IMG/VR virus record: IMGVR_UViG_3300009370_000009
Coordinates: 1-64,000 of that record
Direction: 5' to 3' (one strand)
Origin: a virus
DNA length: 64,000 bases
Part shown: positions 1 to 10,048 of the stretch, in pieces
How the letters are laid out: the number at the start of each line of letters is the position of its first letter
Numbering within the stretch: position 1 is the stretch's first letter
Made by a program: the position numbers and the translations under genes
The notes under the pieces: generated by a model
Told to the model about the DNA's origin: nothing
Seen by the model: only the letters and a program-made list of their open reading frames with translations
Database searches by the model: none

Positions 1-513
1 GCTATCACCGCCAGTGGCGGGGTAGTCGGGAATGTAACCGGCAACGCCTCAGGGACTGCCGCTACCGTCACCACCGCTGCCCAGACTGCTATCACTTCGG
101 TTGGGACTCTGACCGGGTTGACGATGGGTGGCACCGTTGACGCTGCCGATCAGATTGTTCAGAAGCCAGTCCTAAAGGATGTCGGAGAGACTTGCGTCGC
201 TAATGGAACATCGGGAGCGACGGACACGATTGATCTTCAAGATGGCAACGTCCACAATGTGACGTTGACAGCGAACTGTACGTTTACCTTCTCTAACCCT
301 CCTGCTTCAGGGACCTCGGGTTCATTCACCCTGTTCCTCAATCAGGATGGTACGGGGTCACGCACGGCCACTTGGCCGGGTTCGGTGAAGTGGGCTGGTG
401 GAACCGCGCCAACCCTTACTACTACTGCTAGTCGTACAGATATTCTGGTCTTTACAACTATTGACGGGGGAACGATCTGGTACGGAGCAGTGTCAGGACA
501 GGACTTCCAGTAA
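1..513 (+). CDS. Fibre/adhesin anchor protein, C-terminal part (5'-truncated by the window); cassette A
   Basis: The frame is open from base 1 (AITASGGVVGNVTGNASGTAATVTTAAQTAITSVGTLTGL, a fibre-type repeat). The C-terminal ~120 aa is a close paralog of the C-terminus of 7134..7832. Confidence 0.75.
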   Translation, partial: AITASGGVVGNVTGNASGTAATVTTAAQTAITSVGTLTGLTMGGTVDAADQIVQKPVLKDVGETCVANGTSGATDTIDLQDGNVHNVTLTANCTFTFSNPPASGTSGSFTLFLNQDGTGSRTATWPGSVKWAGGTAPTLTTTASRTDILVFTTIDGGTIWYGAVSGQDFQ

Positions 514-1319
514 TGCCTGTAGGTTCCGCTAAGTTCGGGTTGATGGCAGCCGCCGGGGGCGGCGCTAGTTTTGTTGCCACGGGCGGGATCATCACCCAAT
601 ACACCAACTCAGGTACGACGTATCGGGTCCACACCTTCAGGGGTTCAGGTAAGTTTGTTGTGAATAGCGGTGAGGCTGATGTAACTGCCTTGATTGTCGC
701 AGGAGGTGGAGGAACTGGAGCCGCTGGTGCTGGTGCGGGAGGTATGCAGCAGATTAGTTCAACAGCATCAGCCGGAACCTATTCCATCGTGGTCGGTGCC
801 GGTGGTGCGGGTACAGCAACTAGTGGTGGGAATAACGGAGCAAACTCGTCTGCGTTCGGCACAACTTCTACTGGAGGAGGTAAGGGTGGCGAAGGCTCAG
901 GCGGCTCAGGAGGCTCAGGCGGCGGCGGCTACGGAGGCGGTTCCCCCGGTTCCGGCACCTCGGGACAAGGTAATGCTGGTGGGTCATGGTCCGGTTCGGA
1001 GATTGGCGGTGGCGGCGGCAAGGGAGAAGCGGGCAATACTGATGGTCAAGGATACGGTGGCGATGGAGCCACTGGGATAGGTGTTAGTTCTTCAACCCCC
1101 TATTACGCAGGTGGCGGTGCCGCTGGCGACTACAACACCGGCAACCAGTACTACGGCGGTCAGGGTGGTGGAGCCAACAACGCACCGAATAGCCACGGTA
1201 TCGGAGGGGTTCCGAATACCGGGGGCGGGGCGAGTGGTAGGGATGTTACGCCTGTTGCAAAGGATGGGGCCGATGGCGGTGCGGGCATCGTTGTGATCCG
1301 CTACGAGGTGGCTGCGTAA
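513..1319 (+). CDS. Glycine-rich virion adhesin/fibre subunit
   Basis: Motifs YRVHTF.GSG, IVAGGGG, GGSGGSGGG, NTGGG and GIVVIRY are typical of phage Gly-rich domains. TAATG overlap with the upstream gene. Confidence 0.75.
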   Translation: MPVGSAKFGLMAAAGGGASFVATGGIITQYTNSGTTYRVHTFRGSGKFVVNSGEADVTALIVAGGGGTGAAGAGAGGMQQISSTASAGTYSIVVGAGGAGTATSGGNNGANSSAFGTTSTGGGKGGEGSGGSGGSGGGGYGGGSPGSGTSGQGNAGGSWSGSEIGGGGGKGEAGNTDGQGYGGDGATGIGVSSSTPYYAGGGAAGDYNTGNQYYGGQGGGANNAPNSHGIGGVPNTGGGASGRDVTPVAKDGADGGAGIVVIRYEVAA

Positions 1320-1921
1320 TGGCTCTCCCCGCTTACATTGACGAGTCCACTGGTGCGATCACCGATGGTGAGGCATGGGTCGCCCTGGCGACGAAAACGC
1401 CCAGCGGGGCGAACGTGTCGTTCACTTCGACCGATGACGGTCAGGTCGGGGACTGGTCGCAATACATGGATCTCGTCGTGATCGGGTACTTCCGTATGAG
1501 CGCATCTGGAACCTATGGCGGTATGTGGCTCAACTTCAACAGCGACACGGGAAGCAACTATGCGTGGCAGGAGATGGTGTGCGATGGGTCGTCTGTGAAC
1601 TCTTGGGCTACTGGTTCTGCTGGGAGCGCAGGTACCGATTACATCAGAGTGGCTCATTGTCCCAAGGCGGGTGCCACCGCCAACATCTTTGGCTCAATGG
1701 TGTTAAACATCTTTGATGTCAATTCTGGCAAACACAAGTTGCTGACTTCGACTAGCGCTGCCGACTTGGATTCCAACAATACCGATAGCACCTGTGTCCT
1801 CTTTACTGGAACGTGGAAGAAACAAGATCCGATCACTTCGATCACCTTTGATGTGGACAACAACTACGTCACTGGAACCCGTTTCGACCTGTTCGGTGTC
1901 CTCCCAAGGATGGTGGCCTGA
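1319..1921 (+). CDS. Adhesin triad subunit 1 (cassette A)
   Basis: Beta-rich ~200 aa ending ITSITF...GTRFDLFG. Paralog of 7832..8512 (shared EAW...FTS...W...DLV). Confidence 0.65.
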   Translation: MALPAYIDESTGAITDGEAWVALATKTPSGANVSFTSTDDGQVGDWSQYMDLVVIGYFRMSASGTYGGMWLNFNSDTGSNYAWQEMVCDGSSVNSWATGSAGSAGTDYIRVAHCPKAGATANIFGSMVLNIFDVNSGKHKLLTSTSAADLDSNNTDSTCVLFTGTWKKQDPITSITFDVDNNYVTGTRFDLFGVLPRMVA

Positions 1922-2457
1922 TGGCTGTGATCGAAGCAATCGCCACAACGTATTTGGAGGCTGATGCGGGGAACATCACATGGAGTTCGATTCCGCAAAC
2001 CTACGAGCATCTACAGATCCGTGCCAGTTTTCAGGATCACAACGCCACCAACTCGGCAACGAACTTCACGCTGGCGGTCTACTTCAACAACGACAATAGT
2101 TATGCAAGGTTCGCCACTCACATGGTGAGGGCCTACGGAAGTACCGATACTGGCTATGCCCACGCCTCTTGGGCGCAGGTTGGATACATGGGTGCCGAAC
2201 CAGACATCCCCCGTTATGCGGGGGTTGTGTTGGACATTCTGGACTACACCAACGCGAACAAGAAGACCGTGGTTTCTGGCCTCAACGGTTATGTGGGGAC
2301 GGTCAATAATGTTTCGTTCGGCTCGTCGCTATGGCATACGGCCAGCAGCGGGTCGGGCGTGAACGATGCGGTAACCCAGATCATGTTGCATTCTCCCGGC
2401 GGTGCTGGTCTGCTGCGGGGTGGGTCAGCGACTCTCTATGGATTGAAGTCTTCGTAA
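1921..2457 (+). CDS. Adhesin triad subunit 2 (cassette A)
   Basis: SIPQTYEHLQIR...DILDY.N.NK...GSATLYG, the same fold signature as its neighbours. TGATG overlap. Confidence 0.65.
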   Translation: MAVIEAIATTYLEADAGNITWSSIPQTYEHLQIRASFQDHNATNSATNFTLAVYFNNDNSYARFATHMVRAYGSTDTGYAHASWAQVGYMGAEPDIPRYAGVVLDILDYTNANKKTVVSGLNGYVGTVNNVSFGSSLWHTASSGSGVNDAVTQIMLHSPGGAGLLRGGSATLYGLKSS

Positions 2458-8512: not shown

Positions 8513-9093
8513 CGTACCATCTTATTTCTGCTGTGGAACTGTCTTCAACCACTAGCGTGGTTGAGTTTGCGGACATATCAGATGAAGGGATAATGCTGGA
8601 ATGTCGAGTCAACGCCAAGTCAACTCGTACCACTCAATCTGACCAAATCGCCTTTAAAACTATAGATGGTACTCAAAATGGCTGGTCAGGTGGGATGGCT
8701 GTCGCAGACACAGGTGGTTGGGTCAACTCCAACAGTAACTATTATTGGGGCGGCGGGTCTGCTTATTTTTCAAGCACGGTGTACAGTAACATTGCTGCGT
8801 CCGGGTCCACCAACAATGTGTCCGGGCAGTTCTCTCCTGTCATCATGCAATTTTGGAATTACAATGTTGACACTCAACCTACGAGCGCCATGTTGTGGTC
8901 AGGTACTTTGAATGCCACTAACGCAGCGTGGAGTAACAATTCCGTTCAGTTTGTTTGGGGCAATTTGTTGGATTATTCTGGCGGTTCTCAGTTTGAGAGA
9001 CTGACCAAGATGTCAGGTTTGTACATACAATGCGGTTTCGGAGATTTTGTGGCTGGTTCATCATTTCGTCTATACGGGTACAAGGCAGCATAA
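8509..9093 (+). CDS. Adhesin triad subunit 2 (cassette C)
   Basis: ATGA overlap; ends GSSFRLYG. Confidence 0.65.
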   Translation: MTYHLISAVELSSTTSVVEFADISDEGIMLECRVNAKSTRTTQSDQIAFKTIDGTQNGWSGGMAVADTGGWVNSNSNYYWGGGSAYFSSTVYSNIAASGSTNNVSGQFSPVIMQFWNYNVDTQPTSAMLWSGTLNATNAAWSNNSVQFVWGNLLDYSGGSQFERLTKMSGLYIQCGFGDFVAGSSFRLYGYKAA

Positions 9094-9719
9094 TGGCACT
9101 GGTAAAGGCAATGTTCTTTTTGAGCCAGTCTACTGTTTCTGGTACTGGGACGTATACGGTGTCTCATTCAATCAGTAACGCTAACGACTATCAGTCGCTC
9201 AGGATTATCTTCTCCGCTAGAACAAATAGTTCCAATATAGCCAATGGTCGTGGGATGGGGTACGACAGGTTGTATATGCAGTTTAATGGTGATACAACTG
9301 GAGCGAACTATATGTGGGGTGGAATTGACGGCAACTATGATAATGATTCTGCTGCGTATTGGAGACAAAGAGACAGTTCAAATCTAGGCAGCGGGTATCG
9401 CACTACCTATGGGTATGACATCGGAGAATTGGCTGCACACGGCAGTACCAGGGATGGGAGTAATGATGTTTGGACTAGTGGAATGATCGACATTTTGCAC
9501 AAGTCTGGGTCTTGGTGTCAGAGTATTATCCAAACGTGGCAACCAAAGGGTAACGGTGGTTCTTCGTTCAACGCACAGTTGTACTCCACAGGAAAGGTTC
9601 TCTCCGGGTTTGTATGGAAGGATACTTCTACGTTAACTTCCGTTGCTTTTAAGACTAGGCACAACCGGTTTGAGCCTGGATCACATTTTGCTTTATATGG
9701 TTTAAAGAATACGGCGTAA
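9093..9719 (+). CDS. Adhesin triad subunit 3 (cassette C)
   Basis: Start at the TAATG overlap (MALVKAM); FNGDTTGANY...GSHFALYG. Confidence 0.65.
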   Translation: MALVKAMFFLSQSTVSGTGTYTVSHSISNANDYQSLRIIFSARTNSSNIANGRGMGYDRLYMQFNGDTTGANYMWGGIDGNYDNDSAAYWRQRDSSNLGSGYRTTYGYDIGELAAHGSTRDGSNDVWTSGMIDILHKSGSWCQSIIQTWQPKGNGGSSFNAQLYSTGKVLSGFVWKDTSTLTSVAFKTRHNRFEPGSHFALYGLKNTA

Positions 9720-9742
9720 CAGCTGATTGGAGGAAATAGATT

Positions 9743-10048
9743 ATGCCAGTAGAATCAGGCGCAACCCGCCTAACTAATGAATCAGGAACTTGGGAGTATG
9801 TCCCTCTGACTCAAGAGGAAATAGATCTTCGCAATGCTCAAGCGGAGGATGCGGATCTAGACTTTAGTGAGATCAGAGCAGTACGGGATGGAGATTTGGC
9901 CCGGTCTGATTGGACAGATTTGCCCAATGCTCCACTTACTGCTGAGAAGGCAGCGGAGTGGCAGACGTACCGTCAGGAACTACGAGACTATCCGGCACAG
10001 TCCGACAGGGTTTCAACACTTCCGGCGTGGCCAACACCTCCGTCTTAA
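9743..10048 (+). CDS. Tail-fibre assembly chaperone (cassette C)
   Basis: IRAVRD..L..SDWT.LP.APL.....EWQTYRQELRDYP....WPTPP; paralog of 3052..3363. Confidence 0.8.
   Translation: MPVESGATRLTNESGTWEYVPLTQEEIDLRNAQAEDADLDFSEIRAVRDGDLARSDWTDLPNAPLTAEKAAEWQTYRQELRDYPAQSDRVSTLPAWPTPPS

What the first reader, a model, noticed from the sequence alone, without database searches (positions are those of the whole stretch)
1..10048. Array of three interchangeable fibre/adhesin cassettes built from reusable anchor, payload and chaperone parts
Seen: cassette A is anchor (..513) + Gly-rich subunit + three paralogous beta proteins + chaperone. Cassette B is Mtd_N anchor + small adaptor + two 6-blade propellers + two helper ORFs. 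Cassette C is Mtd_N anchor + three paralogous beta proteins + chaperone. The C anchor is a visible chimera: its N-domain is nearly identical to B's and its C-domain nearly identical to A's. Most genes within cassettes are joined by TAATG/TGATG/ATGA overlaps, and extended -10 promoters sit at or near cassette joints (3023, 7116). Inference: a modular receptor-binding toolkit in which a common virion-attachment domain displays alternative tips. This would give multi-receptor virions or recombinational host-range switching, with no invertase or DGR in view.
Basis: partly seen in the sequence, partly recalled or inferred. Interest (0 to 1): 0.85.

Follow-up and report, generated by a model that had tools for sequence, protein, structure and literature searches.

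The report
Modular tail-fibre cassettes with plug-and-socket joints
An uncultured marine phage carries a row of at least three tail-fibre gene cassettes in which a conserved "socket" domain on the fibre stalk is always followed by a gene starting with a matching ~20-residue "plug" peptide, whatever the tip. Related phages shuffle these cassettes freely, which looks like a widespread way of swapping host-recognition parts.

Summary
Window 1-10048 encodes three co-oriented, tightly coupled fibre cassettes.
- A: stalk C-domain, Gly_rich_2 protein, three beta-sandwich paralogs, Phage_tail_APC chaperone.
- B: Mtd_N stalk, 118-aa protein, two six-repeat Kelch-like proteins (the first split at a TAATG), two conserved helpers.
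- C: Mtd_N stalk with the same C-domain, three paralogs, chaperone.

"Nearly identical" is overstated. The N-domains are 85% identical in protein over 55 aa (~73-75% in DNA). The C-domains are 63% identical.

- In IMG/VR relatives with the same backbone, cassette number, order and content differ.
- The gene after the stalk C-domain starts with a conserved leader (M-x-x-G-x-x-K-x-x-L-x-AAAG) in 24-30 of 40 cases, against 7 of 784 other ORFs.
- The leader sits on at least eight payload types and its subtype co-varies with the C-domain subtype.
- The C-domain models as an XD1-type beta-sandwich, as in CBA120 TSP4 and T4 gp9/gp10, proteins of branched or fibre-bearing baseplate assemblies.
- No reverse transcriptase, invertase or integrase was found.

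Physical docking and virion location are inferred, not shown. I rate it a new variant of a known kind (branched, modular receptor-binding complexes). The scan noted a similar tandem cassette unit in another genome.

The parts
1..513 (+). g01: 3' part of the fibre stalk ('anchor') of cassette A, cut by the contig start; shaft plus conserved C-terminal domain (CTD)
   Evidence: Matches phrog_9017 and phrog_7760 tail fibre. It is 63% identical to the g14 CTD and 86-89% identical to CTDs of relatives.
513..1319 (+). g02: glycine-rich payload protein with the N-terminal leader MPVGSAKFGLMAAAGGG
   Evidence: Pfam Gly_rich_2 E 3e-11. phrog_2295. Leader family.
1319..1921 (+). g03 (b1): first beta-sandwich paralog of the triad in cassette A
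   Evidence: AF2 model with pLDDT 90, all-beta. 1930 representative clusters at E<=1e-3. No Pfam or PHROG match.
1921..2457 (+). g04 (b2): second paralog of the triad
   Evidence: Profile scores. The order b1-b2-b3 is kept wherever relatives' cassettes are recovered whole.
2457..2990 (+). g05 (b3): third paralog of the triad
   Evidence: Profile scores (b1 profile 58 bits, b2 profile 65 bits).
3020..3031 (+). Extended -10-like motif ATCTGGTATACT in the 2990-3052 gap, upstream of chaperone g06
   Evidence: one of only two exact matches in 64 kb.
3052..3363 (+). g06: tail-fibre assembly chaperone; its stop overlaps the g07 start (TAATG)
   Evidence: Pfam Phage_tail_APC E 2.4e-18. phrog_4912. RBS AAGGAG lies before the ATG at 3052.
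3363..3866 (+). g07: Mtd_N fibre stalk of cassette B, with a different C-terminal part (no CTD)
   Evidence: Pfam Mtd_N E 1.2e-16. Its first 55 aa are 85% identical to g14.
3879..4235 (+). g08: 118-aa protein that travels with g07-type stalks
   Evidence: phrog_30535 E 5e-33. Found next to g07-type stalks in L009, L039, L041, L049, L053 and L055.
4238..5277 (+). g09+g10: six-repeat Kelch-like protein split in two ORFs at the TAATG at 4679-4683
   Evidence: Repeats. The relative L009 has an intact 329-aa version. An X2 contig covers 1938-7231 with no gaps.
5277..6233 (+). g11: intact six-repeat Kelch-like protein
   Evidence: phrog_19111 E 1.5e-37. Atlas lead of 0.97 to viral Kelch-like clusters.
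6259..7094 (+). g12 and g13: conserved helpers that always follow the repeat proteins
   Evidence: They co-occur with the repeat proteins in L003, L004/5, L009/10, L013 and L049. g12 is 92% identical to L009 while the repeat proteins are ~30%.
7113..7124 (+). Extended -10-like motif ATCTGCTATACT, 9 nt before the g14 start, inside a conserved intergenic element
   Evidence: The same element with the same spacing lies upstream of Mtd_N stalk genes in 6 of 28 unique upstream regions of relatives.
7134..7832 (+). g14: complete fibre stalk of cassette C: Mtd_N (1-47), low-confidence shaft, CTD (126-229) with XD1-like fold
   Evidence: Pfam Mtd_N. AF2 model. Fold hits with Z 6.5-7.2 to KP1 baseplate, Pa223 capsid spike, CpaA, StcE and CBA120 TSP4 79-178.
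7832..8512 (+). g15: b1-type beta-sandwich paralog carrying the leader MSLGSNRALLAAAGVS
   Evidence: b1 profile scores 57 bits. Leader.
8509..9719 (+). g16 (8509-9093) and g17 (9093-9719): second and third paralogs of the triad in cassette C
   Evidence: g16 scores best with the b2 profile (23 bits). g17 scores 33-34 bits with all three profiles.
9743..10048 (+). g18: tail-fibre assembly chaperone of cassette C
   Evidence: Pfam Phage_tail_APC E 5.8e-16. 45% identical to g06.
10106..10528 (+). g19: small protein with a C-terminal hydrophobic segment that marks the right border of the array in relatives
   Evidence: 55-65% identical ORF directly after the array in L001/2, L003, L011, L013, L014, L037, L041, L053 and L055. 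Weak XhlA match below cut-off.

Best explanation
The region is a variable island of side-fibre (receptor-binding) cassettes in a roughly 100-kb marine siphovirus-like phage.

Each cassette encodes a short stalk protein. Its N-terminal domain is most likely the end that attaches to the virion. That domain is Mtd_N in g07 and g14 and unknown in the cut g01.

In g01 and g14 the stalk ends in a conserved ~105-residue beta-sandwich of the XD1 type, which acts as a socket. The next gene's product starts with a ~20-residue leader (M-x-x-G-x-x-K/R-x-x-L-x-A-A-A-G), which acts as the plug. Distal parts of quite different kinds are hung on the stalk this way: a glycine-rich protein, ordered triads of beta-sandwich paralogs, Kelch-like six-repeat proteins and others.

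Triad cassettes end with a Phage_tail_APC chaperone that helps fold or assemble the distal part. Repeat-protein cassettes use g12/g13 instead. Cassette B uses a second connector type: the g07 tail, g08, and a different leader on the repeat proteins.

The genes are co-oriented and mostly overlap, with two likely internal promoters. All cassettes are therefore probably expressed together, giving particles with several different tips.

Over evolutionary time whole cassettes and single modules are gained, lost and exchanged between phage lineages, which changes host recognition.

Shown: gene content, domain assignments, conservation patterns, variation among relatives, leader-socket association and co-variation, and fold similarity of the models.
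Inferred: physical docking, virion location, co-expression and receptor binding.
For: - Domains.
- Cassette variation among relatives with a shared backbone. Examples:
  - L002: two Gly+triad cassettes, then another Mtd_N stalk.
  - L013: CTD stalk + repeat protein + g12/g13, then a Gly+triad cassette.
  - L009: B-type cassette, then two Gly+triad cassettes.
  - L018: triad cassettes without and with the Gly protein.
- Leader after the CTD stalk: 24 of 40 unique downstream ORFs by a strict pattern, against 7 of 784 other ORFs. Six more MSTKKKLLEAAAG cases were missed by the pattern.
- The leader sits on Gly-rich, repeat-protein, b1-type, unknown 200-aa, 640-900-aa, 570-aa and RCC1-like payloads.
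- The same pair occurs in cultured Roseobacter phage CRP-9, gp45/gp44.
- Leader subtype follows CTD cluster, and genomes with two CTD stalks carry two different matched pairs.
- Leader codons vary mainly at third positions: identity 0.87, 1.00 and 0.69 at positions 1, 2 and 3. Selection is therefore on the peptide.
- The CTD is the most conserved part of the stalk, with many invariant columns, while payloads diverge. Between cassettes A and C the CTD is 63% identical and the chaperone 45%, but b1 only 26%.
- The seven best CTD fold hits score Z 6.5-7.2, and the next CTD hit scores Z 3.6. They are the set reported for CBA120 TSP4 XD1: TSP4 79-178, CpaA 6O38 and StcE 4DNY, with T4 gp9 and gp10 weaker in Foldseek.
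- Compositional mosaic: GC3 is 0.51-0.71 in cassette A and 0.26-0.31 in g08-g10 and g13, against 0.30-0.45 in the backbone.
- No reverse transcriptase, invertase or integrase.
Against: - No direct evidence that any of these proteins is in the virion or that leader and CTD touch. No complex could be modelled here.
- In CBA120 TSP4 the XD1 domain itself is thought to be a spacer, and partners bind XD2/XD3 (PMC8825819).
- The same fold in StcE and CpaA binds glycans, so the CTD could itself be a receptor-binding tip.
- Fold Z values of about 7 are in the range where only a common arrangement may be shared.
- Adjacent genes are inherited together, so leader-CTD co-variation can arise from linkage alone.
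- About a quarter of CTD-downstream ORFs, mostly behind distant CTDs, show no clear leader.
- The array lies far from the tail-tip genes (26-36 kb), so the attachment site is open.
Confidence: 0.62

Rival explanations
1. An ordinary multi-fibre locus without docking. Each stalk with its CTD is a complete short fibre whose CTD is itself the glycan- or receptor-binding tip. The downstream proteins are independent virion or accessory proteins. The shared N-terminal peptide serves some other purpose, such as recognition by a common chaperone or assembly factor.
For: The XD1 fold is a glycan-binding module in StcE and CpaA. XD1 in TSP4 is not the partner-binding domain. PHROGs label CTD proteins simply as tail fibre proteins.
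Against: Receptor-binding tips are usually the most variable part, yet the CTD is the most conserved part: 86-89% identity across relatives whose payloads are 30-50% identical. The leader is found almost only directly behind a CTD gene. It co-varies with the CTD subtype.
Confidence: 0.2
2. One long branched or serial fibre rather than alternative fibres. The products of a cassette, or of several cassettes, stack end to end, as T4 gp34-gp35-gp36-gp37 do. The three cassettes would then be segments or branches of a single appendage.
For: Tight translational coupling runs across the whole array, including g06-g07. Ordered triads are kept in the same order wherever recovered whole. The T4 long tail fibre is encoded by consecutive genes (own knowledge).
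Against: Each cassette starts with its own stalk carrying a typical N-terminal attachment domain. Relatives work with one, two or three or more cassettes in any order. That fits independent units better than segments of one fibre.
Confidence: 0.1
3. Head or collar fibres rather than tail fibres. The Mtd_N stalks would dock on the capsid or neck and mediate reversible first contact, while the tail-tip proteins at 26-36 kb make the irreversible contact.
For: The array is separated from the tail-tip genes. One of the best CTD fold hits is a capsid spike of Pseudomonas phage Pa223 (Z 7.1). In L002 a protein with a head-decoration-like C-terminus lies just upstream of the array.
Against: Nearly all PHROG matches are tail-fibre families. 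The chaperones are tail-fibre assembly types. Gene position is weak evidence in mosaic phages. This rival concerns only the site of attachment and is compatible with the plug-and-socket model.
Confidence: 0.15

Closest known systems
Branched tailspike complex of Ackermannviridae phage CBA120 (TSP1-4) and the T4 gp10/gp9 XD domains; also G7C gp66-gp63.1 (PMC8825819)
   Same: Several receptor-binding proteins are encoded side by side. An anchor protein has an N-terminal virion-attachment domain followed by beta-sandwich XD-type domains. Partners are hung on the anchor through their N-terminal regions. Modules are swapped between related phages. The g14 CTD model matches TSP4 residues 79-178 (XD1) and the same outgroup set: CpaA, StcE and T4 gp9.
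   Different: Only an XD1-like domain is present, and it is C-terminal. No XD2 or XD3 was found. The proposed partner signal is a short linear leader, not a folded XD2 domain. The stalk N-terminus is Mtd_N. Payloads are small beta-sandwich triads, Gly-rich and Kelch-like proteins rather than beta-helix depolymerases. The phage has a siphovirus-type tail module and comes from the sea. There is no detectable sequence similarity.
Tail fibre plus Tfa-type chaperone cassettes of lambda (stf-tfa), Mu (S-U/S'-U') and P2 (H-G)
   Same: The distal fibre gene or genes are followed directly by a small assembly chaperone of the Caudo_TAP / Phage_tail_APC kind. Cassettes are exchanged between phages (own knowledge).
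   Different: In Mu and P1 the alternative cassettes are switched by an invertase. Here no invertase, integrase or inverted repeats were found, and all cassettes face the same way. Here the distal part is split into three or four separate small proteins.
Bordetella phage BPP-1 Mtd and its diversity-generating retroelement
   Same: The N-terminal ~40-residue Mtd_N domain. The model's N-domain aligns with 1YU0 residues 5-49 (Z 4.1) and with the HylP N-terminus (Z 4.9).
   Different: There is no reverse transcriptase, no template/variable repeat pair and no C-type-lectin variable domain. Variation here comes from cassette exchange, not mutagenic retrohoming.
T4 long tail fibre (gp34-gp35-gp36-gp37 with gp38/gp57A)
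   Same: A fibre is built from products of consecutive genes, with a dedicated chaperone at the end of the gene row (own knowledge).
   Different: The T4 segments are long and unrelated to each other. Here the three distal proteins are ~180-230-aa paralogs of one beta-sandwich family. That also allows a C1q-like heterotrimer.

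Membership tests
Branched RBP complexes built on T4 gp10-like XD domains (CBA120 TSP4/TSP2, G7C gp66) | XD1-type nine-stranded mixed beta-sandwich in the anchor protein | tested here: met
   g14 residues 123-230 align with TSP4 79-178 (7rej Z 6.5, rmsd 3.1 A, 89 residues), CpaA 6o38 (Z 7.1), StcE 4dny (Z 6.7) and KP1 baseplate 9f4a (Z 7.2). 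The next CTD hit is Z 3.6. This is a predicted model with moderate Z, so it is similarity of fold only.
Branched RBP complexes built on T4 gp10-like XD domains (CBA120 TSP4/TSP2, G7C gp66) | XD2/XD3 jelly-roll domains that form the trimeric partner-binding faces | tested here: inconclusive
   No part of the g14 model matched XD2 or XD3. g14 has no room for them: the shaft (48-125) is low-confidence and the CTD is the last domain.
Branched RBP complexes built on T4 gp10-like XD domains (CBA120 TSP4/TSP2, G7C gp66) | Physical binding of a second receptor-binding protein to the anchor | not testable with these tools
   Only indirect evidence is available: leader-CTD adjacency and co-variation.
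Tail fibre + Tfa-type assembly chaperone cassette | Caudo_TAP / Phage_tail_APC chaperone gene directly downstream of the distal fibre gene or genes | tested here: met
   g06 scores PF16778 66 bits (cut-off 26.6) and g18 58.5 bits. The chaperone is present at the end of the triad cassettes in relatives.
Invertible fibre segments (Mu G, P1 C) | Serine invertase and flanking inverted repeats | tested here: not met
   No Resolvase match in the 90-kb record, whose estimated completeness is 87%. The longest inverted repeats are 34 nt at 71%.
Diversity-generating retroelement target (Mtd type) | Reverse transcriptase plus template/variable repeat pair | tested here: not met
   No RVT_1 match. No near-identical direct repeats; the best long pairs are 72-75% identical paralogous domains.
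Kelch-type beta-propeller | Six or so ~45-50-residue four-strand blades closing into a ring | tested here: inconclusive
   Six sequence repeats in g11 and in g09+g10. Atlas neighbours are viral clusters, some with Kelch_1 on 18% of members. No Pfam Kelch hit and no PDB sequence hit. Not folded here.
TNF/C1q-like trimeric jelly-roll heads (for the triad proteins) | Compact jelly-roll that trimerises, possibly as a heterotrimer of paralogs | tested here: inconclusive
   The g03 model (pLDDT 90) is a beta-sandwich. Best hits are weak and mixed: GH32 C-domains Z 7.8, Pgp3 C-domain Z 6.7, HFTV1 tail fibre Z 6.4, C1q/TNF-family about Z 5. The oligomeric state could not be tested.

The most novel reading that the evidence does not exclude
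The CTD and the AAAG-type leader form a widespread plug-and-socket system in marine phages. It would come in several mutually orthogonal specificity pairs, so one genome can hang different tips on different stalks without cross-talk, and new tips can be captured simply by acquiring the ~20-residue leader. In addition, the ordered triads of beta-sandwich paralogs would assemble as C1q-like heterotrimeric receptor-binding heads, which would be unusual for phage fibres.
Probability: 0.4. Interest if true: 0.78.

Novelty: new variant of a known kind. Interest (0 to 1): 0.62.

Why it matters
Host recognition is the least predictable part of uncultured marine phages. A simple sequence rule could help: a conserved stalk C-domain, then a gene that starts with the matching leader. 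That rule would flag the distal, receptor-binding proteins in thousands of metagenomic phages. The stalk family has more than 4600 homologs at E<=1e-10 among the 8000 candidates scored. The unannotated triad family has about 1900 clusters at 50% identity.

The rule would also explain how such phages exchange host-range modules without invertases or retroelements. It gives a small, testable peptide-domain pair for experiments, including in the cultured Roseobacter phage CRP-9.

Tried and rejected
The longer contigs that carry this very phage (up to 105 kb) could not be fetched, so the N-terminus of g01 stays unknown.
- Megablast of 1-10048 against cultured phages found no match. tblastn of g03 against cultured phages found no match. 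The IMG/VR scan with g15 found no confirmed relative. The word-indexed search with g15 found only itself and one 88% relative.
- PDB sequence search with g11 gave nothing. The Atlas search with g12 gave no usable hit.
- PF26209 is precomputed on the stalk homologs. It is not in the local Pfam copy or in the papers, so its name and description could not be read.
- The HFTV1 paper was checked for a triad-like fibre and gave nothing relevant.
- A literature search for Mtd_N was swamped by mtDNA papers.
- Read recruitment had only Logan contigs available.
  - In three unrelated marine runs, depth lay mainly on the stalk domains (bins 1-667, 3336-4002, 6671-8004) and on the backbone at 10.7-17.3 kb. 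Payload bins were near zero.
  - Uncovered parts in contig data prove nothing, so this is not used as evidence for a metaviromic island.
  - The joints listed there (for example 3215 to 9956) have short sides and were disregarded.
- Rejected ideas:
  - DGR or invertase switching.
  - The leader as a nucleotide-level coupling element. Variation is at third codon positions.
  - The leader as a secretion signal. The hydrophobic stretch is too short and lies on lytic-phage structural genes (inference).
- PHROG scans of the genes at 15-21 kb did not locate head genes, so the position of the array relative to the head module remains unclear.

Full report
CONTEXT

The window is the first 64 kb of a 90,382-nt linear IMG/VR virus record with CheckV completeness 87%. 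All large genes are on the + strand.

Downstream of the finding lie, in order:
- a small hydrophobic-tailed protein, g19, at 10106-10528;
- a 1573-aa acidic protein;
- an endolysin at 16325;
- a major-tail-like protein at 19869;
- a tape measure at 21182-26128;
- tail-tip proteins at 26-36 kb;
- replication genes, including DnaE-type polymerase at 44090, 39% identical to those of large Streptomyces phages;
- a terminase-like gene at 58572.

Four marine metagenome runs of one study hold the sequence almost fully, and others hold short shares. The contig starts inside the first visible fibre gene, so the array may extend further upstream.

WHAT IS IN 1-10048

Eighteen + strand genes were defined.

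- Cassette A
  - g01 (1-513) is a stalk fragment ending in a conserved C-terminal domain (CTD). It matches tail-fibre PHROGs.
  - g02 (513-1319) is a Gly_rich_2 protein.
  - g03, g04 and g05 are 178-200-aa proteins with no Pfam or PHROG match.
  - g06 (3052-3363) is a Phage_tail_APC chaperone.
- Cassette B
  - g07 (3363-3866) has Mtd_N.
  - g08 (3879-4235) matches phrog_30535.
  - g09+g10 and g11 are repeat proteins matching phrog_19111.
  - g12 and g13 follow.
- Cassette C
  - g14 (7134-7832) has Mtd_N plus the CTD.
  - g15, g16 and g17 follow.
  - g18 is a Phage_tail_APC chaperone.

Eleven of the 18 junctions are 1-nt or 4-nt overlaps. The only sizeable gaps (2990-3052 and 7094-7134) each hold the motif ATCTGNTATACT. 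It occurs exactly nowhere else in the window.

PARALOGY

- g01 and g14 share 63% identity over 172 aa. g07 and g14 share 47 of the first 55 residues. g06 and g18 are 45% identical.
- At the DNA level the shared domains are 72-75% identical with no long identical tracts. They are old paralogs kept similar by selection on the protein.
- BLASTP links only g03 to g15 and g03 to g17. Profiles built from relatives' b1, b2 and b3 proteins score all six window proteins.
  - g15 is b1-like (57 bits).
  - g16 is closest to b2 (23 bits).
  - g17 is equidistant (33-34 bits).
- g11 has six ~48-aa repeats. g09+g10 have six, with the third cut by the stop/start at 4679-4683.
- The relative L009 has two intact versions of 329 and 313 aa.
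- A contig from run X2 covers 1938-7231 without gaps, so the split is reproduced in that assembly. X2 is from the likely source study.

RELATIVES

A scan of IMG/VR with g14 returned 77 loci. I mapped the window proteins onto them. Contigs that share the backbone right of the array carry different arrays. Backbone identities are g19 63-65%, acidic protein ~65% and the ferredoxin-like ORF 77-79%.

- L002 (100-kb contig): [CTD stalk-Gly-b1-b2-b3-chaperone] twice, then another Mtd_N stalk with a different C-part, then g19.
- L013: [CTD stalk-repeat protein-g12-g13], [Mtd_N/CTD stalk-Gly-b1-b2-b3-chaperone], then g19.
- L009: [B-type stalk-g08-two repeat proteins-g12-g13], then two Gly+triad cassettes, then a further Mtd_N stalk.
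- L003: a Gly+triad cassette, then an Mtd_N stalk with a repeat protein and g12-g13.
- L018: triad cassettes both without and with the Gly protein.
- L049: g08 precedes the B-type stalk.

Cassette number, order and content therefore vary.

Wherever a triad is recovered whole, the order b1-b2-b3-chaperone is kept. g12/g13 always follow the repeat proteins.

g12 is 92% identical between the window and L009, while the repeat proteins are ~30% identical. That is the pattern expected of an assembly helper next to a fast-evolving tip.

In L002 the array begins after a ribonucleotide reductase and a few structural-like ORFs.

THE LEADER

Prompted by another first-stage note on this stretch, I extracted the ORF that starts within 60 nt of the stop of every CTD-type stalk.

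- 24 of 40 unique ORFs match a strict leader pattern, against 7 of 784 other ORFs of 100 aa or more.
- Six further cases (MSTKKKLLEAAAGNAG) were missed only by the pattern. Two of the seven 'others' are obvious leaders on a second payload placed after a chaperone (L019, L021).
- The leader heads proteins of very different kinds:
  - Gly-rich proteins;
  - repeat proteins (L004, L006, L013);
  - b1-type proteins (L018 and window g15);
  - unknown ~200-aa proteins;
  - 640-900-aa proteins;
  - ~570-aa proteins;
  - RCC1-like repeat proteins.
- Repeat proteins behind B-type stalks start with a different shared N-terminus, M..ER..P.TKVS.W (window g09 and g11; L009). The same payload class therefore carries different leaders according to the stalk type upstream.
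- Clustering the CTDs shows that each CTD cluster has its own leader subtype:
  - MPVGSAKFGLMAAAG;
  - MPLGAFKTALMGAAG;
  - MSTKKKLLEAAAG;
  - MTNIRRGLLGAAG.
- Genomes with two CTD stalks combine two different matched pairs.
- Among eleven cluster-I leaders, identity is 0.87, 1.00 and 0.69 at codon positions 1, 2 and 3. The peptide, not the RNA, is conserved.
- The cultured Roseobacter phage CRP-9 has the same pair. gp45 ends in the CTD, and gp44 starts MATKKKLLQAAAGSAGG.

STRUCTURES

- g03 was modelled with 71 homologs. The model is a confident all-beta sandwich (pLDDT 90.3).
  - Fold matches are weak and mixed: GH32 C-domains Z 7.8, Pgp3 C-domain Z 6.7, HFTV1 tail fibre Z 6.4, C1q/TNF-family about Z 5, lectins by Foldseek.
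  - The family is large, with 1930 clusters at 50% identity and E<=1e-3. It includes chains with two or four copies.
- g14 was modelled with 37 homologs. It has a confident N-domain (1-47), a low-confidence shaft and a confident CTD (126-229).
  - The N-domain aligns with HylP and Mtd N-termini (Z 4.9 and 4.1).
  - The seven best CTD hits score Z 6.5-7.2, and the next CTD hit scores Z 3.6. They are the KP1 baseplate protein, Pa223 capsid spike, CpaA, StcE, CBA120 TSP4 residues 79-178 and a tailspike of phage Solidus.
  - T4 gp9 and gp10 are lower in Foldseek.
- The TSP4 paper defines residues 80-178 as XD1 and lists gp9, gp10, CpaA and StcE as its structural relatives (PMC8825819). The CTD model therefore has the XD1 fold.
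- That paper also states that in TSP4 the partners bind XD2/XD3, and that XD1 looks like a spacer because both of its faces are occupied by linkers. Here the domain is terminal, so its distal face is free. This is an inference, not a result.

COMPOSITION AND SWITCHING DEVICES

- GC3 is 0.51-0.71 in g01-g07, with 0.66-0.71 in g03-g05. It is 0.26-0.31 in g08-g10 and g13, and 0.41-0.52 in cassette C. The backbone is 0.30-0.45.
- The array is thus a compositional mosaic, as expected for laterally exchanged cassettes.
- No RVT_1, Resolvase or Phage_integrase match exists in the record. There are no near-identical direct or inverted repeats.

PROMOTER-LIKE ELEMENTS

- A plain sigma-70 scan shows no excess and does not list the two motifs, which lack a -35.
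- The element at 7113 is part of a ~45-nt intergenic sequence: TAGTTAGTT..AAAA...CTGNTAYAMTGGAGRTAT, then the start codon 9 nt after the -10.
- It recurs with the same spacing upstream of Mtd_N stalk genes in 6 of 28 unique upstream regions of relatives. This conservation supports function but does not prove promoter activity.
- The element at 3020 precedes chaperone g06, which is coupled to stalk g07.

READING

The best-supported model is a variable island of side-fibre cassettes that use a conserved plug-and-socket joint (XD1-like CTD and N-terminal leader). Cassette B uses a second connector type.

Co-orientation and coupling suggest that all cassettes are expressed together, which would give particles with several tips. 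The variation seen is between lineages. The low internal DNA identity argues against frequent switching within one lineage.

Still inferred: physical docking, the site of attachment, and receptor binding. Three rivals are weighed in their own sections:
- the CTD as the actual tip;
- one serial or branched fibre;
- head or collar fibres.

COMPARISON AND NOVELTY

Multi-RBP phages, branched complexes on gp10-like domains and fibre+chaperone cassettes are well known. The following appear not to be described in the papers I could search:
- the pairing of a terminal XD1-like domain with a short co-varying leader on many payload classes;
- the ordered triads of an unannotated beta-sandwich family;
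- the width of this system in marine viromes.

I therefore class it as a new variant of a known kind. The scan has also noted a six-gene fibre/Gly-rich/triad/chaperone unit in tandem in another genome. I did not examine that genome.

Noticed in passing
window 4238-5277: The first six-repeat protein is split mid-repeat by a -1 frame change at the TAATG (4679-4683). A contig of run X2 covers the site with no gaps, and the relative L009 has an intact 329-aa version. It could be a real pseudogene, a two-piece protein or a recoding site.
   Followed up: partly
window 1-7094: Third-position GC is 0.66-0.71 in g03-g05 but 0.26-0.31 in g08-g10 and g13, against 0.30-0.45 in backbone genes. Neighbouring cassettes seem to come from donors of different base composition.
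   Followed up: partly
G000:C1:82000-90382 (outside the window): The last ~8 kb of the contig have 52-56% GC against ~40% just before. ORFs overlap on both strands and there are repeated peptide motifs. This could be a chimeric assembly end, host DNA, or a block continuous with the GC-rich cassette A if the genome is circularly permuted.
   Followed up: no
window 7094-7134; L004:4387-4446, L007:13564-13623, L014:318-377, L015 (three sites): A conserved ~45-nt intergenic element (TAGTTAGTT..AAAA..CTGNTAYAMT GGAGRTAT) lies directly upstream of some Mtd_N stalk genes in several relatives, always with the -10-like box 9 nt before the start codon.
   Followed up: partly
L019:3755-4627 and L021:11873-12727: A second leader-bearing protein (MPFGSSKAAILGAAGA...) sits after the chaperone without a stalk gene of its own. 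This suggests that two payloads may share one stalk type.
   Followed up: no
proteins P0087, P0108, P0119, P0128: Members of the g03 beta-sandwich family occur as single chains with two copies (350-440 aa) or four copies (1730 aa) of the domain. This bears on whether the triads form hetero-oligomers.
   Followed up: no
window 6259-6801 versus L009:5192-5785: g12 is 92% identical to its L009 counterpart while the adjacent repeat proteins are only ~30% identical. It is a strikingly conserved helper with no family annotation and no Atlas hit.
   Followed up: partly
L002:6057-6962, L009:6076-7059, L013:7295-8227: In these relatives the first CTD-type stalk seen in the array starts with MAI(D/N)FP(N/D)SP..GD.HTV.GK.W instead of Mtd_N. 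The shaft of window g01 resembles this type, so the socket domain is combined with several different N-terminal domains.
   Followed up: partly
homologs of g14: The collection's precomputed annotation puts a Pfam family PF26209 on the stalk proteins. It is absent from the local Pfam copy, so a curated family for this region may already exist under a name I could not read.
   Followed up: partly
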